Below, piece by piece: positions 11,953 through 20,170 of a stretch of DNA of 64,000 nt. A program made the position numbers and the translations under genes. The DNA is taken from assembly GCA_965612735.1 (NCBI GenBank), contig CBFDSV010000003.1, positions 6,113 to 70,112 of the forward strand. The letters are read 5' to 3'. How positions within the stretch are numbered: the stretch's first letter is position 1; every line of letters begins with the position of its first letter. The DNA is from an uncultured bacterium (lineage in GTDB: Bacteria; Hydrothermota; UBA3072; B12-G15). The notes under the pieces were generated by a model. The model was not told the DNA's origin, made no database searches, and worked only from the letters and a program-made list of their open reading frames with translations.

Positions 11953-13197
11953 ATGGTGTTTTTATTTATGCTTTTTTCAGTTACAGTTGAGAAATTGCCA
12001 TTTGATTCAGGAAAGAGTATCTATGTCTGGACATTTTCCTATGAGAAGGATTGTCATCTATTCCCGGAGATTGAAGGTTTCAAAAAGGCAGAAATCTTGA
12101 GGAGGGAGAGGACAATTGTTTTAAGGATTGAGGGGGTGATGAATGGTCAACCTTTTGAGGATGAAAGAAACCTCACAGAGGAGGAATACAGCAATATTGT
12201 GTCAAGGGTTGATGTATACCTTTCAACCCATAAAAAACTCAACAGGGAGGGATGGGGGCTTTACCTGCTGGCCACCCTTGAGGTTGGACTTGTTGAATGG
12301 TCACCAATGGGTGCTATTGTTACAGAGAAGGCAGAACTATATCCCATTTTTGCAGCGGCAAGTTTCTTTGCCCCCATGTTTCTCACCAGGAATGTTGATA
12401 TTACCAATGGACAGGCGTGGTTTTCATGGATAATGGCACACCATGCATATCTATTTGGTGTTTCAACGAGTATGCTCTTGTTGGATTCCACAAACAGTAA
12501 ATTCATAGCAGGTTACATGCTTGGGACTGGAATACTTGGAGAGATAGCAGGGTTCAAACTTGCAAGGAAATGGAACCTATCCATGGGTAGTGCAGAGATG
12601 TACAATCATATACTTTTATCCTCCGAGATTTATGGAGGACTTCTTGCCAATGCACTCTTTTCAGGCAAACAGGATCTCTGGGATTATCTGTGGACAGGTG
12701 CATTGATTGGTGAGATCGCAGGGTTTACAGGATGGTACATGTGGGGAAAGGATGAGTACACATTTGGTGATGCCATTGCGTATGATTCATACGGTTTCCT
12801 TGCCCTGCTCACTTCCTATGCAACCATCTCCTCCATTTCAAACTCTGTGGATGATAAGTGGAAGAGTTTGATAGTGTTGGGGATGCATGCTCCAATGAAC
12901 CTTTACGGACTGAAGATATTCAGAAACAATCAGATACCCTTTACAGGAGGACTGGCAATCATTGGTGGAACAGCCGCTGGTCTACTTTTAGGGATTGGAA
13001 CAGGTGCACTCCTGGGTCTTGACATGAGCCGTGAAGGGTGGTGGGCTCTTGCAGCAGGTGGGTGGATTGGATTCATTCCCTCCTATCTTATGGCAAAGGG
13101 AATGAGTGGTGGTAATACAATGCTTGAGATTCACCCGGAGATAAGGTTTGCTGATTCAAAACCCATTTATGGGCTGGGAATCTCAGCAAGGTTTTAA
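11953..13197 (+). CDS. Hypothetical membrane protein with internal GxxGEIAGF repeats
   Basis: Hydrophobic N-terminus. Duplicated TGILGEIAGFKLARKW and GALIGEIAGFTGWYMWGK segments, plus Gly-rich transmembrane-like stretches. Confidence 0.45.
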   Translation: MVFLFMLFSVTVEKLPFDSGKSIYVWTFSYEKDCHLFPEIEGFKKAEILRRERTIVLRIEGVMNGQPFEDERNLTEEEYSNIVSRVDVYLSTHKKLNREGWGLYLLATLEVGLVEWSPMGAIVTEKAELYPIFAAASFFAPMFLTRNVDITNGQAWFSWIMAHHAYLFGVSTSMLLLDSTNSKFIAGYMLGTGILGEIAGFKLARKWNLSMGSAEMYNHILLSSEIYGGLLANALFSGKQDLWDYLWTGALIGEIAGFTGWYMWGKDEYTFGDAIAYDSYGFLALLTSYATISSISNSVDDKWKSLIVLGMHAPMNLYGLKIFRNNQIPFTGGLAIIGGTAAGLLLGIGTGALLGLDMSREGWWALAAGGWIGFIPSYLMAKGMSGGNTMLEIHPEIRFADSKPIYGLGISARF

Positions 13198-13236
13198 CAG
13201 GGTTTACGAGTTAAGGGTTTTGTATATACTATATGT

Positions 13237-14082
13237 ATGAGAAACTTGTTTATTCTCCTGCTCCTTGCAGGATGTGTTTTACATAAAAGTCCCATTGAGA
13301 ATGTTGATACATCTCCACCAGAAAGGGTAGTGAAACTTGTCTTCATACACCACAGTTGTGGAAGAAACGGGCTTGAAACAGGTAACGGAGATCTTGGTGA
13401 TTCCCTCAATGCAAATAACTATTTTGTGAGTGAATGCTACTATGGGTGGGATGAACATCCTGATACTGCCCATTATTCTGTAATGGGAGACCATACTGAT
13501 ACAGAGGATTGGCCGTACTGGTTCAATGATGTTGTGATGCCCTCTGTATATAAGTCAAATTCACATCCATCCTACGATAACAAAATCCCTGACCCTGGTG
13601 GAGAGAATGAGATAATCATGTTCAAGTCCTGTTTCCCATGCAGTTATGTTGGTGAATCCATTGAGGATGAGAAGGCTATATATAATGCCCTTCTTGACTA
13701 TTTCAGGCAACATCCTGAAAAGATGTTTGTTCTTGTAACCCCACCACCAATGAGAACAATTGAGAATAGCCATCTAACAAGGGAACTCACAAACTGGCTC
13801 TGTGATTATGAGAATGGGTGGCTCAAGGACTATCCATTGAATAATGTTTTTGTTTTTGATTTTTATAATGTGCTTACAGACCCAAACAATCATCATCGTG
13901 TAGAGGATGGAGAGATTCAACATATTGTGAGCGACAACCCTGTTGACCTGGAACATCCCAATGAACTTTACTATTACAGTGGGAGTGATAATCACCCCAC
14001 ACCAGAAGGCAACAGGAAGTCCACAGAGGAGTTTGTCCCCCTTTTGAATGCATACTGCCATATGTGGAAACAGGAGGAATGA
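13237..14082 (+). CDS. Hypothetical lipoprotein
   Basis: Signal peptide with lipobox LLLLAGC. No domain recognised. Confidence 0.5.
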   Translation: MRNLFILLLLAGCVLHKSPIENVDTSPPERVVKLVFIHHSCGRNGLETGNGDLGDSLNANNYFVSECYYGWDEHPDTAHYSVMGDHTDTEDWPYWFNDVVMPSVYKSNSHPSYDNKIPDPGGENEIIMFKSCFPCSYVGESIEDEKAIYNALLDYFRQHPEKMFVLVTPPPMRTIENSHLTRELTNWLCDYENGWLKDYPLNNVFVFDFYNVLTDPNNHHRVEDGEIQHIVSDNPVDLEHPNELYYYSGSDNHPTPEGNRKSTEEFVPLLNAYCHMWKQEE

Positions 14083-15497
14083 GGCAGCGTTCTTTGATTG
14101 AAGAGTATTTAAAGCGGATAAGGAGGCTTGAAAGGGCCGTTAAAAGAATAAACCAGATTAAGACCCCCGAAGCAATCATTAAGAATGTTCTCAAGGAGTG
14201 TAATAACATCCTGAAATCTTCTTCCTGTGCTTTGGTACTTAAAAGGGAAAAAAATCTATGGGATGCATTCGTATATAAAAAGGGTAGAAAAATCCTGAAG
14301 AATGATACGATTGTGTCCATTGAAAAACCAGATATTGTTTCCCTTTTCCCTGGAAGGGGTTTATTTATCGGGGAGATTTCAATAAACATTGATGATAAAG
14401 ATACAGGATATTTTTATGGAGCGTTTGATAACAGGGAAACACTTGAACACGCAGAAAAGTTTATCTTCTCCATTATAGAAACCATTCTGATAAGTGCACT
14501 CTCCAGGATTGAACTGCTGAAGGAGGTTAACTTTGCCCACAGGCATTTGAAGATTGTCTATGATATGAGCCAGTCCATCATATCCACAACAGGATTTGAT
14601 AAACTGATAGATAAACTCTTTAAGGAGATTCAACAGCATTTTGGTTATGAGAATATGGTGCTCTTTGTAAGGGAGGATGATGAAACCATGATCCTGAGAT
14701 ATTCAACCCGTCCGCTCCTTGGGCATATTGGTCTGAAATTCAAGATTGGGAAGGACGGCATCGTTGGGCATGTGGCAAAAACAGGCAAACCCTATTATGC
14801 GCCAGATGTGTGGAAAGACCCTTACTATATTATTGGAAGATTTCCTGCTCGTTCAGAATTCACCATACCACTGGTTCTTAAAGGGAAAGTAATTGGTGTG
14901 CTTGATATAGAGAGCACAAAACCCAATGCATTCCCCTCTGAAACAAGAGAGATTCTCAGTGCACTTGCAGCAAATATTGCAGTTGCCATGGAGAGGGCAA
15001 GACTATATGAGGAGACAGAGAGGCTTTCAATAATGGACCCATTAACAGGGGTTTCCAATAGAAGATTGCTGGAAAAGATGCTCCAGAATGCAATAGACCG
15101 TTCAACACGATACAATCGGAAGTTTGCTGTTCTCTTTATTGATTTTGACAATTTTAAGCCCTTCAATGATAGATATGGGCATGCAGAGGGGGACAAGGTA
15201 CTAATTTCACATGCACAGGTGATCAGGGAGCACCTGAGAAAGAGTGATACAATAGGAAGGTACGGTGGGGATGAATTTATTGTTATACTTTATAATGCAT
15301 CAAGGAAGTATGCAGAAAAGGTGGCAAACCGCATATTGAACAGTATTGCAAAGAGCAGATACAGAGAAGTCACTGTGTCCATAGGGGTATCTGTTTATCC
15401 TGAGGACGGAGAAAATGTTGAAGACCTTATCAGGTCGGCTGATGCTGCTTGCTACAAGGCAAAGAAGTTCGGTGGTCAGAGGGTTGATTTCGCCTGA
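14079..15497 (+). CDS. GAF-domain diguanylate cyclase (GGDEF)
   Basis: C-terminus carries RYGGDEF and DPLTGVSNRR motifs, with a central GAF domain. AGGAGG RBS precedes the ATG at 14079, which overlaps the upstream stop. Confidence 0.8.
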   Translation: MRQRSLIEEYLKRIRRLERAVKRINQIKTPEAIIKNVLKECNNILKSSSCALVLKREKNLWDAFVYKKGRKILKNDTIVSIEKPDIVSLFPGRGLFIGEISINIDDKDTGYFYGAFDNRETLEHAEKFIFSIIETILISALSRIELLKEVNFAHRHLKIVYDMSQSIISTTGFDKLIDKLFKEIQQHFGYENMVLFVREDDETMILRYSTRPLLGHIGLKFKIGKDGIVGHVAKTGKPYYAPDVWKDPYYIIGRFPARSEFTIPLVLKGKVIGVLDIESTKPNAFPSETREILSALAANIAVAMERARLYEETERLSIMDPLTGVSNRRLLEKMLQNAIDRSTRYNRKFAVLFIDFDNFKPFNDRYGHAEGDKVLISHAQVIREHLRKSDTIGRYGGDEFIVILYNASRKYAEKVANRILNSIAKSRYREVTVSIGVSVYPEDGENVEDLIRSADAACYKAKKFGGQRVDFA

Positions 15498-15567
15498 TTG
15501 TTTCATTATAAGACACACTGTTTCAAGTTAAATCATCCAGTAAAATAAACCCCTTTGATTATCAAGG

Positions 15568-15596
15568 TCTTATAACTGGCACAGAATATGTATAAT
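15568..15596 (+). promoter_or_regulatory. Candidate sigma-70 promoter with a perfect -10 TATAAT (15591-15596) preceded by TG
   Basis: TATAAT lies 22 nt upstream of the AGGAGG RBS of the Gly-rich gene. The -35 is weak (TCTTAT). TGGCAC at 15577-15582 also resembles a sigma-54 -24 element. Confidence 0.4.
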
Positions 15597-15618
15597 GTCT
15601 GCAAAAAGGAGGTGTGTT

Positions 15619-15900
15619 ATGTTTGGATATGGATGGTATGGTCCTGGTTTTGGATTTGGTTGGGGTAGAGGCTGGGGTAGAGGTTGGGGTAGAGGTTGGG
15701 GTTTTGGAGCAAGGCTTGGTTATTGCCCCTGGACAGGTCTTCCACGGGGATGGAGGTGGGCCTATGGTGGATTTTATCCCTACTGGGGTGCATATAATCC
15801 CTATTTTTATACAAATCCATATGTAAATCCATATGGATACTGGGGGTATCCACCAGAGCCCTACAACCCACAGCAACCTGAAACTTCAGGGAATAAGTGA
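15619..15900 (+). CDS. Small Gly/Trp/Arg/Tyr-rich low-complexity protein with (GWGR)4 and NPY-type repeats
   Basis: AGGAGG RBS, then MFGYGWYGPGFGFGWGRGWGRGWGRGWGFG...YNPYFYTNPYVNPYGYWGYPPEPYNPQQPE. Minus-strand and alternate-frame ORFs over the same DNA are repeat artefacts. Confidence 0.55.
   Translation: MFGYGWYGPGFGFGWGRGWGRGWGRGWGFGARLGYCPWTGLPRGWRWAYGGFYPYWGAYNPYFYTNPYVNPYGYWGYPPEPYNPQQPETSGNK
15658..15705 (+). repeat. 4x tandem 12-bp coding repeat (GGT/C TGG GGT AGA), encoding GWGR
   Basis: Direct tandem copies visible in the sequence. Confidence 0.9.
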
Positions 15901-15909
15901 GGTGGAGAA

Positions 15910-16515
15910 ATGAAGATACTTGTTACATCCACAGGGCCCACCCTTGATTCCCCTGTGGATATGAGGTTTGGAAGGTGTGCCTACTTCATACTTGTTGACC
16001 CTGAAACAATGGAGTATGAGGCAATCAGTAATCCCTATGCACAGGCACCGGGTGGTGCAGGTATTCAGACTGCACAGATGGCACTCCAGACAGGTGCTTC
16101 TGCGATTATCACTGGTTCTGTTGGTCCAAATGCATCTGGTGTACTTGGAACAACAGGGATAAGGGTCTTTGAAAGCCCGAATGTAAGTGTTGAAGAGGCA
16201 GTGAGGATGTACAAGGAAAATAAATTACAACCTTTAACTGTGGGAGGTGGTTTTATGCCAGGAGGATTTGGAATGGGAGCAGGGTTTGGTGGTGGATACG
16301 GTAGGGGTGGTGGTTTTGGAAGAGGTTATGGTAGAGGCGGAGGTTATGGAGGTTATGGTGCCTATGGTGGCTTTGGTCCAGGATACAATCAATGGACACC
16401 ACCCCAGATGAACCCTGCTGAAGAACTTCAGATATTGAGAACTCAGGCGGAGATGCTTAAAAGGCAACTTGATGCAATAGAAAGAAGAATCAGGGAACTT
16501 GAAAATTCAGGCTGA
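15910..16515 (+). CDS. NifX/NifB-family (dinitrogenase FeMo-cofactor-binding fold, PF02579-like) protein with RGG/YGG low-complexity tail and C-terminal coiled coil
   Basis: MKILVTSTGPTLDSPVDMRFGRCAYFILVD...IITGSVGPNASGVLGTTGIRVF matches the fold. The tail reads GGGYGRGGGFGRGYGRGGGYGGYGAYGG, followed by LQILRTQAEMLKRQLDAIERRIRELE. Confidence 0.7.
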   Translation: MKILVTSTGPTLDSPVDMRFGRCAYFILVDPETMEYEAISNPYAQAPGGAGIQTAQMALQTGASAIITGSVGPNASGVLGTTGIRVFESPNVSVEEAVRMYKENKLQPLTVGGGFMPGGFGMGAGFGGGYGRGGGFGRGYGRGGGYGGYGAYGGFGPGYNQWTPPQMNPAEELQILRTQAEMLKRQLDAIERRIRELENSG

Positions 16516-16546: not shown

Positions 16547-16861
16547 ATGAGGATAGCAGTGAGTGCTACAGAGGCAGATTATAATGTTGCTGGTGTTGAC
16601 CCGAGATTCGGAAGGTGTTCATTTTTCATAATATACGATACAGAAACAGGTGAATGGAGTTCCTTCCCCAATCCAGCAAAGGATGCAGTGGGTGGTGCTG
16701 CGATAAAGGCTGTGGAATTTCTTAAAAGTAAGAATGTTGATGTTGTTGTTACAGGTAACCTTGGTCCCAATGCAACATCTTCTCTTACAGCAGCAGGGAT
16801 AAGGGCAATAACAGGAGTAACTGGAAAAGTGCTGAATGCGGTGAAGAGGGCGGGTGAATGA
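16547..16861 (+). CDS. NifX/NifB-family small protein
   Basis: MRIAVSATE...DPRFGRCSFFIIYDTETGEW...VVTGNLGPNA matches the fold. Confidence 0.7.
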   Translation: MRIAVSATEADYNVAGVDPRFGRCSFFIIYDTETGEWSSFPNPAKDAVGGAAIKAVEFLKSKNVDVVVTGNLGPNATSSLTAAGIRAITGVTGKVLNAVKRAGE

Positions 16862-17691
16862 AGGTAGCCATTGGAAGTGGAAAGGGGGGGACGGGAAAGA
16901 CGCTGCTTTCAACCTCCCTTGCCCTTTCACTTGAATATGTGAGATACCTTGACCTTGATGTAGAGGAGCCCAATGGTCATATTTTCATAAAACCAGACAT
17001 CAGGGAAAAAATACCATTCTCAATCCCTGTACCAGAAATAGACTTCAACCGCTGTACATATTGTGGTGAGTGTGCAAAGGCATGCGAGTTCGGGGCAATA
17101 TTTGTAGGGACAAACACGGTGAATGTCTTTGAAAAACTCTGCCATGGGTGTGCCTCATGTAAACTTGCATGCCCTGAAAATGCAATAAGTGAAAGGCCAT
17201 ATGTTGTTGGTGAAATATCCATTGGAAGGCGTGACAAGATTGAATACATAATGGGATACCTGAAGTTGACAGAGGCATTATCAACCCCACTTATCAGATA
17301 CATAAAAAAAGAGTATGGAATGGTCTCAGGTGACATTATTATGGACGCTCCACCAGGGACTTCATGTCCATTTGTTCAGTCTATTTCTGACACTGATTTT
17401 GTTATTCTGATCACTGAACCCACCCCCTTTGGGCTCTCAGACCTTGAGATATCTGTTGAAATTGTCAGGGACATGAAATTGAAAGCGGGAATTGTGATAA
17501 ACAGGGCAGACCTTGGTTCAGAAGAAGTGAAGGAGAAGATAAAGGGGCTCGGGCTTCCTGTACTTCTTGAAATTCCATTCAGTAAGGATATTGCAGTGGG
17601 ATATTCAAAGGGTATTCCGCTTGTTGATGTACTGCCAGAATACAGGGAGAAGATGAAAAAACTGTGGGAGAGAATAAGGGAGATGGTATGA
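16858..17691 (+). CDS. MinD/ParA-family P-loop ATPase with inserted 2x[4Fe-4S] ferredoxin domain
   Basis: Deviant Walker A GSGKGGTGKT. Ferredoxin-type motifs CTYCGECAKAC and CHGCASCKLACP. Start overlaps the upstream stop. Confidence 0.75.
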   Translation: MKVAIGSGKGGTGKTLLSTSLALSLEYVRYLDLDVEEPNGHIFIKPDIREKIPFSIPVPEIDFNRCTYCGECAKACEFGAIFVGTNTVNVFEKLCHGCASCKLACPENAISERPYVVGEISIGRRDKIEYIMGYLKLTEALSTPLIRYIKKEYGMVSGDIIMDAPPGTSCPFVQSISDTDFVILITEPTPFGLSDLEISVEIVRDMKLKAGIVINRADLGSEEVKEKIKGLGLPVLLEIPFSKDIAVGYSKGIPLVDVLPEYREKMKKLWERIREMV

Positions 17692-18578
17692 TAAGGGAAG
17701 TTGCCATTGTCAGTGGAAAGGGTGGAACAGGAAAGTCAACAATTACGCTTGGACTTGCTTCTTTACTGAAAGACAAAGCAGTATTTGTTGATGCAGATGT
17801 TGATGCCCCTGATATGTACATTGTTATGGAGCCAGAACTTCTTAAAAAAGAGGATTTTGAAGGACCAAGATTCCCTGTTTATATACCTGATAAGTGTACA
17901 GGATGTGGATTGTGTGAGCAAAATTGCAGGTTTGATGCCATCAAAATAGTGGATATGAAACCTATTTTCAATGAATTTAAGTGCGATGCCTGTGGTGTAT
18001 GCTGGAGGGTCTGTCCATTTGATGCTATTGAGGTGAGGAGGGATATTTCAGGTGAAATATATATTTCCCGTTCAAGATTTGGCCCATTCGTCCATGCAAG
18101 ACTGTTCCCTGGAAGAGAGAATTCTGGAAAACTTGTAAGCAGGTTGAGGGTTGTGGCAAAGGCCGTGGCTGACGATGCAAAGAAAGATCTTATAATACTT
18201 GATGGTCCTCCTGGTGTTGGATGCCCTGTGATTTCAACCATCACAGGGGTGTCACTCACTGTGGGTATTGTGGAACCTACCCTTTCAGGGATACACGACA
18301 TTATCAGGGTTTATGAACTATCAACATTCTTTAATATTCCCTTTACAATTGTGATAAACAAGAGTAATATAAACCCTGATATGGTTCAACGGATAAAGGA
18401 GTTTGCCAGTGAAAATGGCATAAAGATACTTGGAGAGATACCATTTTCAAGGAGGATTGTAGAGGCACTTCTTCAGAGGAAAACCATAATTGAGGGTGAT
18501 GTTGAGGATGGAATTAAGGAGGAATTAAAAAGGATATGGAATGGAATCCAGTCAATGCTCTCGCTGACGGGATTATAA
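17688..18578 (+). CDS. MinD/ParA-family P-loop ATPase with ferredoxin insert (paralog)
   Basis: VSGKGGTGKST, CTGCGLCEQNC and CDACGVCWRVCP motifs. ATG at 17688 overlaps the upstream TGA. Confidence 0.75.
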   Translation: MIREVAIVSGKGGTGKSTITLGLASLLKDKAVFVDADVDAPDMYIVMEPELLKKEDFEGPRFPVYIPDKCTGCGLCEQNCRFDAIKIVDMKPIFNEFKCDACGVCWRVCPFDAIEVRRDISGEIYISRSRFGPFVHARLFPGRENSGKLVSRLRVVAKAVADDAKKDLIILDGPPGVGCPVISTITGVSLTVGIVEPTLSGIHDIIRVYELSTFFNIPFTIVINKSNINPDMVQRIKEFASENGIKILGEIPFSRRIVEALLQRKTIIEGDVEDGIKEELKRIWNGIQSMLSLTGL

Positions 18579-20170
18579 TTACAGATGAACATCTAAAGAT
18601 TATCAATTTTAATCAGGCTATACTAAGAATTACAGGTTTTTCTCCTGATGAATTGATGGGGAAAAATATAAAAGAGATACTACCTTACTTTAAGAAGGTT
18701 GAGAACAAGGTTATTCCTGCTGTTGAGACAGAGATGAAGACCTGGGAAGGAATGACAATCAAGGTTCTTGTTTCTGTGAATCCTGTTAAATCACCAGAAG
18801 GGAAAACAAATCAACACCTTTTTGTTATCAGGAATATTTTTGAGTACCTTTTTCTCCTGAAGCAACTCGTACAGGAAAGAAATTTCAAGGAGGCAATCCT
18901 TGAATCCATACTTGATGGTGTATTCACTATTGATAGTCAATTCAGGATAACTTCTTTTAACAAAGCAGCGGAAAATATCACAGGGTATAAAAAAGAAGAG
19001 GTTCTTGGCAAAAACTGCAGTGAGGTGATGAAGTCACCGGATGCAGATGCCTGCCCACTGAAAAAAACACTTGAGACAGGAGAGAATGTTTCAAATTATG
19101 AGATGGAAATTATAACAAAGAATGGGAAAAGAATCCCTGTATCTGTGAATACTGCAATTCTCTACGATGAAAAGGGTGAGGTGATAGGAGGTGTGGAAAC
19201 ATTCAGGGATATGTCCGAGATTGTGAGACTGAGGAACGAAGTAAGGCACAGATTTTCCTTCGGAAACATTATAGGGAAGTCTGATTGTATGCAGATCATC
19301 TATGACAAACTTGAGGTTATTTCTGTAACGGACTCAAATGTACTTATTGAAGGGGAAACAGGAACTGGTAAGGATTTGATTGCAAGAACAATCCACTACA
19401 ATTCAATGAGAAAGGATAAGCCCTTTGTGAAGATAAACTGTGCTGCAATCCCTGAGAATCTCCTTGAGAGTGAACTCTTTGGTTATAAGAAGGGCGCATT
19501 TACAGGTGCTGTGATGGATAAGATGGGGAAGTTTGAGGCTGCAGATGGTGGAACCATCTTCCTTGATGAGATAGGGGATATGCCACTCTCACTCCAGGCA
19601 AAAATATTGAGGGTGATAGAGGAGAGGGAGTTTGAGAGGCTTGGAGAGGTTGAGACAAGGAAGGTGGATGTGAGGGTGATTGCTGCTACAAACAGACCCC
19701 TTAAAGAACTTGTGGAACAGGGGAAATTCCGAATGGACCTTTATTACAGGTTGAATGTTGTGAGGATAAGGCTTCCTGCTTTGAGGGAAAGGGCAGAGGA
19801 TATACCACTTCTCCTTGACCACTTTATTGAGGTTTTTAATAAAAAATTCAACAAAAAGGTCAAAGGTGTTGAACAGAGGGTTATGGATTTTCTCCTTGAC
19901 TACTCCTGGCCAGGAAATGTAAGGGAACTTGAGAATGTGATTGAACATGCCATGATACATGCCAGGGGAGATTTGATAAGGTTTGATAATCTGCCTGATT
20001 ACCTGTTTGAAGAAGGGGAATCTGGTGCAGTCAGTCTGGTGGATGTTGAAAGGGAGCACATACTCAGGGTATTGAAAAGTGTAAACAATAACAAGACCAG
20101 GGCAAGCAAGATACTTGGTATATCTCGCTCCACACTCTGGAGAAAACTCAAAGAACTGAACATAGAATAA
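18536..20170 (+). CDS. Sigma-54-dependent transcriptional activator (2x PAS, AAA+ sigma-54 interaction domain, Fis-type HTH)
   Basis: GETGTGKDLIAR, ESELFGYKKGAFTGA and a C-terminal HTH (TRASKILGISRSTLWRKLK). Confidence 0.85.
   Translation: MEWNPVNALADGIIITDEHLKIINFNQAILRITGFSPDELMGKNIKEILPYFKKVENKVIPAVETEMKTWEGMTIKVLVSVNPVKSPEGKTNQHLFVIRNIFEYLFLLKQLVQERNFKEAILESILDGVFTIDSQFRITSFNKAAENITGYKKEEVLGKNCSEVMKSPDADACPLKKTLETGENVSNYEMEIITKNGKRIPVSVNTAILYDEKGEVIGGVETFRDMSEIVRLRNEVRHRFSFGNIIGKSDCMQIIYDKLEVISVTDSNVLIEGETGTGKDLIARTIHYNSMRKDKPFVKINCAAIPENLLESELFGYKKGAFTGAVMDKMGKFEAADGGTIFLDEIGDMPLSLQAKILRVIEEREFERLGEVETRKVDVRVIAATNRPLKELVEQGKFRMDLYYRLNVVRIRLPALRERAEDIPLLLDHFIEVFNKKFNKKVKGVEQRVMDFLLDYSWPGNVRELENVIEHAMIHARGDLIRFDNLPDYLFEEGESGAVSLVDVEREHILRVLKSVNNNKTRASKILGISRSTLWRKLKELNIE

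What the first reader, a model, noticed from the sequence alone, without database searches (positions are those of the whole stretch)
15619..15900. Tiny (GWGR)4 / NPY-repeat Gly-Trp-Arg-Tyr protein under a strong promoter
A 93-aa ORF with a perfect RBS encodes a protein made almost entirely of G, W, R, Y, P and F. It contains four exact GWGR repeats from a 12-bp DNA tandem repeat, then a Tyr/Pro-rich tail (YNPYFYTNPYVNPYGYWGYPPEPYNPQQPE). There is no signal peptide. It is immediately followed by a NifX-like protein that itself carries an RGG/YGG tail, so the two low-complexity proteins may co-assemble into a condensate, amyloid-like or mineral/metal-binding scaffold. Tandem repeats also make the locus prone to copy-number variation. 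I do not recognise this as a described family.
Basis: seen in the sequence. Interest (0 to 1): 0.7.

Follow-up and report, generated by a model that had tools for sequence, protein, structure and literature searches.

The report
Free-standing tail of iron-sulfur storage protein

Summary
The 93-aa ORF (15619-15900, +) exists as described, with two corrections. It has three exact GWGR units plus one GWGF, not four. The upstream element looks like a sigma-54 -24/-12 promoter, not a strong sigma-70 one.

It is a real, conserved gene. Relatives share an invariant core, LGYCPWTGLPRGWRW, with a single Cys. They occur in 60 genome loci from hydrothermal anaerobes: WOR-3, Aminicenantes, Caldisericota, Thermoplasmata and DHVE2. 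In 50 of 51 testable loci a NifX-like gene follows immediately, often with overlapping stop and start codons.

The key result is that the repeat plus core is homologous to the C-terminal tail of Pyrococcus furiosus IssA:
- BLASTP gives 30/49 identities.
- The family HMM scores IssA 11.9 SD above composition-matched shuffles.
- An HMM built only from IssA tails hits this ORF alone in the window, at E 2e-8.

IssA is a NifX-like domain plus a cationic W/G/R tail that is proposed to wrap anionic thioferrate. Here the tail is a separate gene, upstream of a NifX-like protein with its own low-complexity region and coiled coil. The operon also carries two MinD-ferredoxin ATPases and a PAS/sigma-54 activator, so it resembles the Desulfovibrio orp cluster.

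The most likely function is to bind an anionic iron-sulfide polymer in trans. That function is inferred, not shown. I rate it a new variant of a known kind, of moderate to high interest.

The parts
15499..15525 (+). Two direct TGTTTCA repeats 20 nt apart. Candidate binding sites (UAS) for the sigma-54 activator.
   Evidence: Read from the sequence. The first copy is invariant in the close relatives; in the second copy (15519-15525) the leading T is C in L006 and L003, so only GTTTCA is kept there. Their position relative to the -24 element is typical of enhancer sites. This is inference only.
15560..15572 (+). IHF-consensus site, TATCAAGGTCTTA (WATCAANNNNTTR).
   Evidence: One of only 2 matches in the 64 kb. 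It lies between the candidate UAS and the -24 element, as in the D. vulgaris orp promoters (PMC3897727). Inference.
15577..15592 (+). Sigma-54-type -24/-12 promoter element, TGGCAC-agaat-ATGTA.
   Evidence: It is the only match to TGGCACNNNNNWTGY in the window (expected 0.65). It lies 27 nt upstream of the ATG (element end 15591, ATG 15619). Similar elements head related operons: L011 TGGCACaataaTTGT and L034 TGGCATgaaaaTTGC. An activator with a GAFTGA motif lies in the same gene string. The -12 element reads TGT rather than TGC, so the match is imperfect.
15607..15612 (+). Ribosome-binding site, AGGAGG.
   Evidence: Read from the sequence. It lies 6 nt before the ATG.
15619..15900 (+). Small ORF of 93 aa: a free-standing homologue of the IssA tail. 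It consists of the (GWGR)3-GWGF repeat, the LGYCPWTGLPRGWRW core, and a Tyr/Pro-rich C-terminal half.
15658..15702 (+). 12-bp tandem repeat (GGTTGGGGTAGA x3.8) encoding the GWGR units. This is the cationic segment.
   Evidence: TRF. Residues 1-47 carry a net charge of +5.5 and have pI 11.4.
15715..15759 (+). Core motif LGYCPWTGLPRGWRW (residues 33-47), containing the only cysteine.
   Evidence: C36, P37, W38, P42, R43, G44 and R46 are invariant in the 33-member alignment. G[YF]CP.TG.P..R is invariant when IssA tails are added. C, P and P are invariant in 87 Thermococcales IssA sequences.
15760..15897 (+). Tyr/Pro/Asn-rich, slightly acidic C-terminal half with NPY repeats. It has no coiled coil.
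   Evidence: Composition. Most relatives carry a DUF5320 coiled coil after this region, and this ORF does not.
15910..16515 (+). Partner gene: a NifX-like (Nitro_FeMo-Co) domain, then a Gly/Tyr/Phe/Arg low-complexity region, then a DUF5320 coiled coil.
   Evidence: Pfam PF02579 at 1.5e-21 and PF17253 at 2.8e-11. The domain is 32% identical to the IssA domain. The best PDB hits are MTH1175 and the orange protein. The gap to the small ORF is 9 nt.
16547..16861 (+). Second NifX-like protein, 104 aa, with no tail.
   Evidence: Pfam PF02579 at 1.1e-22.
16858..17691 (+). MinD/CbiA P-loop ATPase with an inserted 2x[4Fe-4S] ferredoxin domain (Orp3/Orp4-like).
   Evidence: Pfam and NCBIfam. It overlaps the previous gene by 4 nt.
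17664..18578 (+). Second MinD/CbiA+Fer4 ATPase. Gene callers start it at 17688, giving 296 aa.
   Evidence: Pfam and the gene calls.
18536..20170 (+). PAS-PAS sigma-54 enhancer-binding protein with a GAFTGA motif and a Fis-type HTH.
   Evidence: Pfam Sigma54_activat at 5e-74, plus PAS and HTH_8. GAFTGA is visible in the translation.

Best explanation
The ORF encodes an intrinsically disordered, cationic, Gly/Trp/Arg/Tyr-rich protein. It is the free-standing counterpart of the C-terminal tail of IssA, the iron-sulfur storage protein of Pyrococcus furiosus.

In IssA, a NifX-like domain nucleates an anionic iron-sulfide polymer (thioferrate, (FeS2-)n). The tail is proposed to wrap that polymer electrostatically, with aromatic residues stacking around it, and this drives assembly into nanoparticles.

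Here the two functions are split between adjacent genes that are probably co-translated:
- The small protein supplies the (GWGR)n polycation and the single-Cys LGYCPWTG.P motif.
- The downstream gene supplies the NifX-like nucleating domain, a second low-complexity stretch, and a coiled coil for oligomerisation.

Two MinD-ferredoxin ATPases probably load or unload Fe-S species. A PAS-domain sigma-54 activator probably switches the operon on.

Shown: the gene is real, it is homologous to the IssA tail, it is obligately paired with a NifX-like gene, and it is predicted to be disordered and positively charged.

Inferred: binding of thioferrate-like iron sulfide, assembly in trans, the role of the Cys, and sigma-54 control.
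For: 1. Homology to the characterised IssA tail.
- BLASTP of ORF residues 5-50 against P. furiosus IssA residues 129-177 gives 30/49 identities, E 6e-5.
- An HMM of the family's N-terminus plus core scores IssA at 34.7 bits. 2000 composition-preserving shuffles of the tail give mean -15.9, sd 4.2 and maximum 1.3, so z is 11.9.
- Six metagenomic Thermococcales IssA proteins score 19-38 bits, against a shuffle maximum of 6.
- In the reverse direction, an HMM built only from 84 IssA tails hits this ORF alone in the window (E 2.2e-8), plus 68 family ORFs elsewhere.
- The joint alignment has the invariant pattern G[YF]CP.TG.P..R.

2. IssA biochemistry (PMC5524996). The IPR003731 domain binds Fe and S. 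The tail is cationic, aromatic and Gly-rich with a repeating W/G/R pattern, contains the only Cys, and is proposed to bind thioferrate.

3. Synteny. 50 of 51 non-redundant testable loci have a NifX-like gene starting within 600 nt downstream on the same strand, frequently overlapping by 1, 4 or 8 nt. 25 of 46 also have two MinD-Fer4 genes.

4. Fused and split forms. In Thermococcales the same tail is fused to a NifX-like domain. This Rosetta-stone relationship implies that the split partners interact.

5. Physical character. The N-terminal half has pI 11.4 and a charge of +5.5. AF2 predicts disorder for the ORF (mean pLDDT 48.6) and for the IssA tail (block means 38-57). This matches the published disordered-until-bound model.

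6. Partner tails. The NifX-like partners carry their own G/R-rich tails or coiled coils. All 11 coil-less small proteins are paired with a coil-bearing NifX partner.

7. Operon precedent. The Desulfovibrio orp cluster has Orp3/Orp4 MinD-Fer4 proteins, the NifX-like Orp8, and sigma-54 plus activator plus IHF control. A matching -24/-12 element and an IHF site lie upstream of the ORF.
Against: - No expression, binding or localisation data exist for this protein or any free-standing relative.
- The NifX-like partner is acidic (pI 5.6) and ends in a coiled coil. It therefore fails the published IssA-clade criteria of pI >= 9 and >= 20% Gly in the last 40 residues.
- In P. furiosus, thioferrate-like iron still forms without IssA (PMC8219758). 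Even for IssA, the tail's role in mineral formation is a model, not a demonstrated mechanism.
- The gene order is reversed relative to the fusion: tail gene first, then the NifX-like gene.
- The operon resembles the orp cluster as much as the issA locus. Thermococcales issA loci have no MinD-Fer4 genes nearby.
- AF2 gives no confident docked conformation of the motif on the NifX-like domain.
- The sigma-54 -12 element is imperfect (TGT instead of TGC).
Confidence: 0.55

Rival explanations
1. It is an accessory subunit of an ORP-type (orange protein) complex, not a storage system. The cationic tail would bind a discrete anionic metal-sulfide cluster (for example a Mo/W-Cu-S or small Fe-S cluster) held non-covalently by the NifX-like Orp8-type proteins. 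Alternatively, it would tether the MinD-like ATPase complex to a cellular site such as the membrane, a pole or the septum.
For: - The gene string (two NifX-like genes, two MinD-Fer4 genes, a PAS sigma-54 activator) matches the D. vulgaris orp cluster, where Orp3, Orp4 and Orp8 co-purify and sigma-54, the activator and IHF control transcription.
- The partner's NifX-like domain hits the orange protein structure 2wfb at E 2.4e-17.
- Upstream of the ORF are a -24/-12 element and an IHF site.
- Thermococcales issA loci lack MinD-Fer4 genes, so the window's operon is not simply an issA locus.
Against: - The only characterised homologue of the small protein itself is the IssA tail.
- About half of the family loci (21 of 46 with 3 kb or more of downstream sequence) have no MinD-Fer4 genes next to the pair. 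The conserved partner is the NifX-like protein, not the ATPases.
- No Orp5 or MrpORP (Orp9) equivalent is present. NF041136 scores 27-40 bits against a cut-off of 450.
- This rival overlaps with the best explanation, since both involve binding an anionic metal sulfide.
Confidence: 0.2
2. It is a metal-independent scaffold. Arg/Tyr/Trp/Gly 'sticker' sequences in the small protein and in the neighbour's RGG/YGG tail drive phase separation or fibril formation, which concentrates the NifX-like and MinD-Fer4 proteins.
For: - The composition is 32% aromatic and 25% Gly with regularly spaced Arg.
- Disorder is predicted.
- Both partners have low-complexity regions.
- Three family members give weak compositional hits to keratin head domains and sulfur-globule proteins.
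Against: - A strictly conserved, non-repetitive motif with an invariant Cys is not expected of a purely compositional scaffold.
- The homologous IssA tail is monomeric in the apo form and oligomerises only with Fe-S bound.
- The number of repeat units ranges from 0 to 5 while the core stays fixed.
Confidence: 0.1
3. It is a nucleic-acid-binding RGG/GW-type peptide, or a Trp/Arg-rich membrane-active or secreted peptide (antimicrobial or RiPP-like).
For: RGG/GW repeats bind RNA in other systems, and RW-rich peptides are membrane-active (general knowledge). The protein has a high pI.
Against: - The obligate pairing with NifX-like genes is unexplained by this idea.
- There is no signal peptide, leader or cleavage motif.
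- No modification, export or immunity genes are conserved nearby. The radical-SAM genes upstream are divergent, and the flanking genes differ between the related loci examined.
- The same sequence is fused to a cytoplasmic metal-binding domain in Thermococcales.
Confidence: 0.05
4. It is not a functional gene: an open frame created by a G-rich tandem repeat, or a mis-called frame or strand.
For: The region also has open frames on the minus strand (104 and 84 aa) and in another plus frame (70 aa). GGN-rich sequence keeps its complement free of stop codons.
Against: - A perfect RBS sits at the right spacing.
- The substitution pattern is 12 synonymous to 3 non-synonymous against the WOR-3 orthologue.
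- The plus-frame product is conserved from Bacteria to Archaea with an invariant motif.
- It is homologous to part of a purified protein.
Confidence: 0.02

Closest known systems
IssA (iron-sulfur storage protein A, PF2025/Q8TZG9) of Pyrococcus furiosus; Vaccaro et al. 2017, PMC5524996
   Same: The ORF aligns with the last ~50 residues of IssA. Both have FGWGRGWG.G.GWGRGWG..LGYCPWTG.P...RW.YG, the single Cys, a cationic/aromatic/Gly character and predicted disorder. In both cases the tail is associated with a NifX-like (IPR003731) domain of the MTH1175/IssA type. The source organisms are hydrothermal anaerobes.
   Different: - Here the tail is a separate polypeptide encoded upstream of the NifX-like gene, not its C-terminus.
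- It carries an extra 46-residue Tyr/Pro-rich half and lacks the terminal YGWW.
- The NifX-like partner is acidic and has its own low-complexity region plus a coiled coil.
- The operon contains MinD-Fer4 ATPases and a sigma-54 activator, which are absent from Thermococcales issA loci.
- The host is a bacterium (WOR-3-like).
- No biochemistry exists for the split form.
Pfam DUF5320 (PF17253), an uncharacterised family of small Gly/Arg-rich proteins with a C-terminal coiled coil
   Same: 24 of 33 aligned members of the LGYCPWTGLPRGWRW family (the ORF plus 32 relatives) match PF17253. Canonical DUF5320 proteins also have a single Cys in a G.G[YF]C context followed by G/R/aromatic low complexity. 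DUF5320 is very often fused to, or adjacent to, NifX-like domains, with more than 2000 fusions found. The ORF's own neighbour carries DUF5320.
   Different: The ORF has no coiled coil and gives no PF17253 hit even at E <= 10. Profile-profile comparison of the family with canonical DUF5320 aligns only the coiled coil. The canonical N-terminal MP.GD.TGP.G.GP.TGR motif is absent.
ORP (orange protein) gene cluster of Desulfovibrio vulgaris Hildenborough (DVU2103-DVU2109); PMC6345978, PMC3897727, PMC4641369
   Same: Both have two paralogous MinD-like ATPases with 2x[4Fe-4S] motifs (Orp3/Orp4), a single-domain NifX-like protein (Orp8), an adjacent PAS-type sigma-54 activator, and a sigma-54 promoter with an IHF site between the enhancer and the promoter.
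   Different: No Orp5 or MrpORP equivalent is present. The genes run in one direction rather than as divergent operons. Whether the orp cluster has a counterpart of the small protein (DVU2107) could not be checked here. The proposed ORP function (cell division, Mo-Cu cluster) differs from storage.
Sulfur globule proteins (SgpA/B/C, PF17228) and other mineral- or inclusion-coating low-complexity proteins
   Same: These are Gly/aromatic-rich repetitive small proteins associated with inorganic sulfur deposits. Three family members give weak hits (best E 0.037).
   Different: The hits are below threshold and compositional. Sgp proteins are exported with signal peptides and lack the Cys core motif. 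There is no NifX association.

Membership tests
IssA (iron-sulfur storage protein A) | N-terminal IPR003731 / Nitro_FeMo-Co (NifX-like) domain in the same polypeptide | tested here: not met
   The ORF has no Pfam or NCBIfam domain. The domain is encoded by the next gene, 15910-16515.
IssA (iron-sulfur storage protein A) | Cationic, aromatic, Gly-rich tail with a repeating W/G/R pattern and the protein's single Cys | tested here: met
   30/49 identities to IssA residues 129-177. The HMM z-score is 11.9 against shuffles. The reciprocal IssA-tail HMM gives E 2.2e-8. The ORF has one Cys, and its N-terminal half has pI 11.4.
IssA (iron-sulfur storage protein A) | Clade criteria of Vaccaro et al.: pI >= 9, fewer than 5 Cys, and >= 20% Gly in the C-terminal 40 residues | tested here: not met
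   The ORF has pI 9.44 and 1 Cys, but only 4 of its last 40 residues are Gly, because the Gly-rich part is N-terminal. The NifX-like neighbour has pI 5.57 and ends in a coiled coil (criteria).
IssA (iron-sulfur storage protein A) | Binds thioferrate and forms Fe-S nanoparticles; expression responds to sulfur and iron | not testable with these tools
   This needs anaerobic reconstitution, EPR/EXAFS/TEM, or expression data from the source organism.
DUF5320 (PF17253) | Match to the Pfam model, whose conserved part is the C-terminal coiled coil | tested here: not met
   There is no hit for the ORF at E <= 10, while 24 of 33 aligned family members match. hhalign aligns only the coiled coil, which the ORF lacks.
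LGYCPWTGLPRGWRW-core family (unnamed; free-standing IssA-tail proteins) | N-terminal G[WF]GR repeats, the invariant core G[YF]CPWTG.PRGWR, then a Tyr/Pro-rich region | tested here: met
   Alignment A1 has C36, P37, W38, P42, R43, G44 and R46 invariant. There are 82 representative clusters at E <= 1e-3 and 60 genome loci.
LGYCPWTGLPRGWRW-core family (unnamed; free-standing IssA-tail proteins) | Gene lies immediately upstream of a NifX-like gene on the same strand | tested here: met
   The gap is 9 nt in the window. The arrangement holds in 50 of 51 testable non-redundant loci.
ORP (orange protein) cluster | Orp3/Orp4-type MinD-Fer4 pair plus an Orp8-type NifX-like protein | tested here: met
   Pfam CbiA plus Fer4 in two adjacent genes. 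The NifX-like domain hits PDB 2wfb (ORP) at E 2.4e-17.
ORP (orange protein) cluster | Sigma-54 promoter with a cognate activator (and IHF) | tested here: inconclusive
   An activator with GAFTGA is present. There is a single TGGCAC-N5-ATGT match in the right place and an IHF consensus site. The -12 element is imperfect and there is no transcript data.
ORP (orange protein) cluster | Orp5 and MrpORP (Orp9) components | tested here: not met
   The NF041136 MrpORP model scores 27-40 bits against a cut-off of 450. No such genes are found among the annotated neighbours.

The most novel reading that the evidence does not exclude
Thioferrate-type iron-sulfur mineral storage is not confined to Thermococcales-type IssA. 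It would exist in Bacteria (WOR-3, Aminicenantes, Caldisericota, Hydrothermota) and in Thermoplasmata/DHVE2 as a modular, multi-gene system. In that system the mineral-binding polycation is a separate disordered protein supplied in trans to a NifX-like nucleator. DUF5320 as a whole would be the mineral-binding and oligomerising module of the system. The orp-type MinD-ferredoxin ATPases and a sigma-54 sensor would be its loading and regulatory machinery. This reading would unify IssA, DUF5320 and the ORP complex as one family of Fe-S mineral organelles.
Probability: 0.35. Interest if true: 0.7.

Novelty: new variant of a known kind. Interest (0 to 1): 0.58.

Why it matters
[quoted passage not shown] The papers read here identify its homologues only through the NifX-like domain, and they describe the tail sequence as conserved only within Thermococcales.

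The tail's core motif turns out to be an independent, strongly conserved gene in at least 60 bacterial and archaeal genomes, always paired with a NifX-like gene. This has four consequences:
1. It points to the LGYCPWTG.P motif with its Cys, and not only bulk charge, as functionally important.
2. It gives a first functional lead for Pfam DUF5320, which was mentioned in only two unrelated papers in the full-text library searched.
3. It suggests that bacteria of hydrothermal, sulfidic habitats may also sequester iron sulfide.
4. It provides a naturally split system, in which tail and nucleating domain can be mixed and titrated, for testing how a disordered protein templates an inorganic polymer.

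It also links two literatures (IssA and the ORP complex) that have been treated separately.

Tried and rejected
- Pfam and NCBIfam scans of the ORF gave no hits, even at permissive thresholds.
- An exhaustive profile search of 1.84 billion representative proteins found 82 family clusters but no IssA. Re-scoring showed why: IssA tails reach only E 1.6e-4 to 0.19 at that database size after bias correction. I initially, and wrongly, took the absence to mean compositional similarity only.
- hhalign of the family against canonical DUF5320 aligned only the coiled coil. It therefore says nothing about the ORF itself.
- AF2 of the ORF (mean pLDDT 48.6) and of IssA with an 87-sequence alignment (tail block means 38-57) gave no structure and no docked motif. 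I therefore ran no fold searches.
- The supplements of two papers did not contain the IssA sequence. I recovered it by back-translating the published cloning primer's peptide into a degenerate DNA pattern, scanning metagenomes with it, and then running a protein search.
- Fievet et al. 2011, the paper describing the orp operons, is not held. I could not check whether DVU2107 is a relative.
- The RiPP or antimicrobial-peptide idea was rejected. No modification, export or immunity genes are conserved nearby, and the flanking genes differ between the related loci examined.
- Antisense and alternative-frame ORFs were rejected as by-products of GGN-rich sequence.
- The synonymous-only differences among L001-L010 were not used as evidence of selection, because those loci were retrieved by exact protein identity.
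- I tested a complementarity rule, that the coiled coil sits on either the small protein or the NifX-like partner. All 11 coil-less small proteins have coil-bearing partners, but 28 of 39 coil-bearing ones do too. The rule is only that at least one coiled coil is present in these loci, and Thermococcales has none.
- A survey of ten further genes in the window found ordinary housekeeping and signalling genes and no additional Fe/S genes.
Full report
OBSERVATION

ATG is at 15619 and the TGA stop ends at 15900, giving 93 codons. AGGAGG lies at 15607-15612, six bases before the start. The product is MFGYGWYGPGFGFGWGRGWGRGWGRGWGFGARLGYCPWTGLPRGWRWAYGGFYPYWGAYNPYFYTNPYVNPYGYWGYPPEPYNPQQPETSGNK.

76% of the residues are G, W, R, Y, P or F. 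There is one Cys, and the pI is 9.44. Tandem Repeats Finder reports a 12-bp repeat (GGTTGGGGTAGA, 3.8 copies, 93% match) at 15658-15702 and a second 12-bp repeat at 15813-15835.

Two details need correcting:
- There are three exact GWGR units followed by GWGF, not four exact units.
- The consensus scan finds no sigma-70-type promoter upstream on the + strand.

Pfam confirms the downstream genes: NifX-like plus DUF5320 (15910-16515), NifX-like (16547-16861), two CbiA/MinD ATPases with inserted 4Fe-4S ferredoxin domains, and a PAS/sigma-54 activator.

IS IT A GENE?

- Exactly this protein is a called gene on at least 21 contigs from ENA, NCBI, JGI and Logan assemblies, always in the same gene string.
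- Those loci were found by exact protein identity, so their purely synonymous differences are not independent evidence of selection.
- The 89%-identical orthologue in a WOR-3 MAG (L016) is independent. Outside the repeat, where the register shifts, it differs at 12 synonymous and 3 non-synonymous sites.
- A protein search found 32 relatives. A scan of one genome per species found 60 loci.
- All share an N-terminal run of G[WF]GR units, an almost invariant core G-A-x-L-G-Y-C-P-W-T-G-L-P-R-G-W-R-W, and a Tyr/Pro-rich region. C36, P37, W38, P42, R43, G44 and R46 are invariant in 33 sequences.
- The long antisense and alternative-frame ORFs are what GGN-rich sequence produces. They are not what is conserved.
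- The family is small: 82 representative clusters at E <= 1e-3 among 1.84 billion.
- It is confined to hydrothermal anaerobes of both domains: WOR-3, Hydrothermota, Aminicenantes, Caldisericota and a Clostridia MAG among Bacteria, and Thermoplasmata, DHVE2/Aciduliprofundum and related Archaea.
- The window itself most likely comes from a WOR-3 relative.

CONTEXT

I called ORFs in all loci and built HMMs for the NifX-like domain, the MinD-Fer4 ATPases, the sigma-54 AAA domain and the coiled coil.

- Of 51 non-redundant loci with at least 450 nt of sequence downstream, 50 have a NifX-like domain starting within 600 nt on the same strand. The remaining one has a NifX-like gene slightly further away.
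- The two genes often overlap by 1, 4 or 8 nt, which suggests translational coupling.
- 25 of 46 loci with at least 3 kb downstream also have the two MinD-Fer4 genes.
- The NifX-like partner almost always has a tail of its own. It is either a (GRGMG)n-type Gly/Arg run ending in an aromatic residue, or a low-complexity stretch followed by a short coiled coil.
- Most small proteins of the family also end in that coiled coil, which is what Pfam DUF5320 recognises. 24 of 33 aligned family members match PF17253.
- The window's protein is one of the coil-less minority. It gives no PF17253 hit, and profile-profile comparison with canonical DUF5320 aligns only the coiled coil.
- All 11 coil-less small proteins are paired with a coil-bearing NifX partner, as in the window.
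- DUF5320 appears in only two unrelated papers in the full-text library searched.

THE KEY LINK: IssA

A literature search for NifX-like proteins led to IssA of Pyrococcus furiosus (PMC5524996). IssA has a 109-residue IPR003731 (NifX-like) domain that binds Fe and S. This is followed by a 70-residue tail with a Pro-rich stretch and then a cationic, aromatic, Gly-rich region with a repeating W/G/R pattern and the protein's only Cys. [quoted passage not shown] The authors propose that the tail wraps the polymer electrostatically, stabilised by its aromatic residues.

The paper does not print the sequence. I back-translated the peptide encoded by the published cloning primer (MKIAIPTNGGG) into a degenerate DNA pattern and scanned metagenome contigs with it. 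Nine loci encode IssA-type proteins whose tails read ...GWGRGWGRG...GRGWGA[RQ]LGYCPWTG[QM]P.RR...[FY]GWW.

A protein search from one of them returned the P. furiosus DSM 3638 protein itself, P0308. It is 179 aa, as the paper states, and it contains both primer-encoded peptides. Its tail is ...APAMYGPVYPPFGWGRGWGKGRGWGRGWGSILGYCPWTGMPSRRALRWYYGWW.

The evidence that this is homology and not shared composition:
- BLASTP of the ORF against IssA aligns residues 5-50 with 129-177 at 30/49 identities, E 6e-5 with composition adjustment.
- An HMM of the family's N-terminus plus core scores IssA at 34.7 bits. 2000 shuffles of the tail that preserve composition give mean -15.9, sd 4.2 and maximum 1.3, so z is 11.9.
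- Six metagenomic IssA proteins behave the same way.
- In the reverse direction, an HMM built only from 84 Thermococcales IssA tails was searched against 7,185 ORFs (the six frames of the window plus 75 loci). It hits this ORF and nothing else in the window (E 2.2e-8), together with 68 family ORFs elsewhere.
- A joint alignment keeps G[YF]CP.TG.P..R invariant.
- Within 87 Thermococcales IssA sequences, the tail's C, P and P are invariant and the surrounding motif is above 90% conserved.

The similarity is therefore order-specific. The big profile search missed IssA only because these short, biased matches reach E 1.6e-4 to 0.19 at that database size.

WHAT THIS MEANS

The ORF is a free-standing version of the IssA tail. 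In Thermococcales the tail is fused to a NifX-like domain, and a second NifX-like gene with a (GRGMG)n tail follows about 300 nt downstream. In Thermoplasmata and in the bacteria, the tail is its own gene in front of a NifX-like gene with a Gly/Arg or low-complexity tail.

The window's NifX-like partner is 38% identical to that second Thermococcales protein and 32% identical to the IssA domain. Its best solved relatives are MTH1175, which was the template used to model IssA, and the Desulfovibrio orange protein. Fused and split forms of the same two modules are the classic sign that the split partners work together.

PROPOSED MECHANISM

Shown:
- Homology to the IssA tail.
- Obligate pairing with a NifX-like gene.
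- A strongly cationic N-terminal half (pI 11.4, net charge +5.5).
- Predicted disorder, both for the ORF (mean pLDDT 48.6) and for the IssA tail in a deep alignment (domain above 90, tail block means 38-57).

Inferred from the IssA model:
- The NifX-like domain nucleates an anionic iron-sulfide species.
- The small protein binds it in trans through its spaced arginines.
- The invariant Cys-containing motif acts as an anchor or ligand, and the aromatic residues pack around the polymer.
- The partner's coiled coil multimerises the assembly.
- The MinD-ferredoxin ATPases would load or mobilise Fe-S.

Caveats:
- The partner is acidic and fails the published IssA-clade criteria.
- Thioferrate-like iron still forms in P. 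furiosus without IssA, so IssA may organise or detoxify the mineral rather than create it (PMC8219758).
- Nothing is known about expression of the split form.

REGULATION AND THE orp PARALLEL

The gene string resembles the orp cluster of Desulfovibrio vulgaris. There, Orp3 and Orp4 (MinD-like, 2x[4Fe-4S]) and Orp8 (NifX-like orange protein) form a complex. Two operons are driven by sigma-54, the activator DVU2106 and IHF (PMC6345978, PMC3897727, PMC4641369).

Upstream of the ORF:
- TGGCACagaatATGT at 15577-15591 is the only match to TGGCACNNNNNWTGY in 64 kb (expected 0.65).
- An exact IHF consensus, TATCAAGGTCTTA, lies at 15560-15572. It is one of two matches in the window.
- Two TGTTTCA repeats lie 75-95 nt further upstream than the -24 element.
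- Related operons next to sigma-54 activators carry TGGCACaataaTTGT (L011) and TGGCATgaaaaTTGC (L034).
- The activator has a GAFTGA motif.

I regard sigma-54 control as likely but unproven, because the -12 element is imperfect.

RIVALS

- The ORP-type reading has the protein as an accessory of a complex that handles a discrete metal-sulfide cluster, or that positions the MinD-like ATPases. It is the main alternative and partly overlaps with the best explanation.
- A purely compositional condensate or amyloid scaffold fits poorly with an invariant non-repetitive Cys motif, and with the fact that apo-IssA is monomeric.
- Nucleic-acid-binding or secreted-peptide ideas do not explain the NifX pairing.
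- The artefact hypothesis is refuted by conservation.

NOVELTY

IssA is known, and so is the proposed role of its tail. In the papers read here, homologues are recognised only through the NifX-like domain, and the tail sequence is described as conserved only within Thermococcales.

What appears to be new:
- The tail's core motif exists as an independent, conserved gene in many bacteria and archaea.
- It is usually joined to the DUF5320 coiled coil.
- In bacteria it sits in sigma-54-associated, orp-like operons.

I rate this as a new variant of a known kind. It gives DUF5320 its first functional lead and offers a naturally split system for testing how a disordered protein templates an inorganic polymer.

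Noticed in passing
window 15499-15592: The layout upstream of the ORF resembles a sigma-54 enhancer-dependent promoter. Two TGTTTCA direct repeats lie 20 nt apart (15499-15505 and 15519-15525). An exact IHF consensus, TATCAAGGTCTTA, lies at 15560-15572. TGGCAC-N5-ATGT lies at 15577-15591. The Desulfovibrio orp promoters have the same order of elements.
   Followed up: partly
window 15910-16515, and L003-L010 and L016: The Gly/Tyr/Phe/Arg tail of the NifX-like neighbour differs by whole GGGFGR-type units between strains that carry an identical small ORF (198, 201 and 207 aa). At strain level, copy number varies in the neighbour rather than in the flagged gene.
   Followed up: partly
window 15661-15704: The coding strand carries four GGGG runs, each separated by 8 nt (the GWGR repeat). 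This could form a G-quadruplex in DNA or mRNA. One of the only two papers that mention DUF5320 is a survey of archaeal G-quadruplexes.
   Followed up: no
L076-L084 (for example L079 2796-3287): In Thermococcales loci, issA is followed about 300 nt downstream by a second NifX-like gene with a (GRGMG)n...RGGW tail. The partners of the free-standing tail genes in Thermoplasmata carry the same tail type. IssA may therefore normally work with a second tailed NifX-like protein.
   Followed up: partly
proteins P0037-P0098: Sister sub-families have different single-Cys cores (GNPYPFCR.FPWLPRGWW and SPPWPYVG.GRGGLPRC), flanked by the same G/R repeats and coiled coil. P0054 combines the canonical DUF5320 N-terminus (MPYGDCTGPDGQGPMTGR) with the LGYCPWTGMPRGWRW core in one protein.
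   Followed up: no
proteins P0109-P0228: Fusions of a NifX-like domain, a (GRGMG)n run and a DUF5320 coiled coil are very common. More than 2000 proteins match at E <= 1e-5, from Methanosarcinales, Hecatellales, Actinomycetota, Desulfobacteria and Dehalococcoidia.
   Followed up: no
L011, L023 and L037: In some related operons a ~450-aa Pyr_redox_2 flavoprotein disulfide-reductase-like gene and an extra NifX-like gene lie between the sigma-54 activator and the small tail gene. This hints at a redox step in the system.
   Followed up: no
L068-L075 and P0013/P0014/P0021/P0022: The archaeal coil-less variants end in ...YPWW or PWWW. This resembles the ...YGWW C-terminus of IssA, which the window's protein lacks.
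   Followed up: no
window 16858-20170: Gene overlaps point to a single transcription unit. The second NifX-like gene and the first MinD-Fer4 gene overlap by 4 nt. The second MinD-Fer4 gene and the sigma-54 activator overlap by 43 nt. The activator may therefore be co-transcribed with its own targets.
   Followed up: no
window 11953-15497: Directly upstream are two genes with no significant Pfam match: a 414-aa protein with none at all, probably membrane-bound judging by its hydrophobic sequence, and a 281-aa protein with only a weak GDSL-lipase hit. A GAF-GGDEF diguanylate cyclase follows. This arrangement is conserved only in the closest relatives.
   Followed up: no
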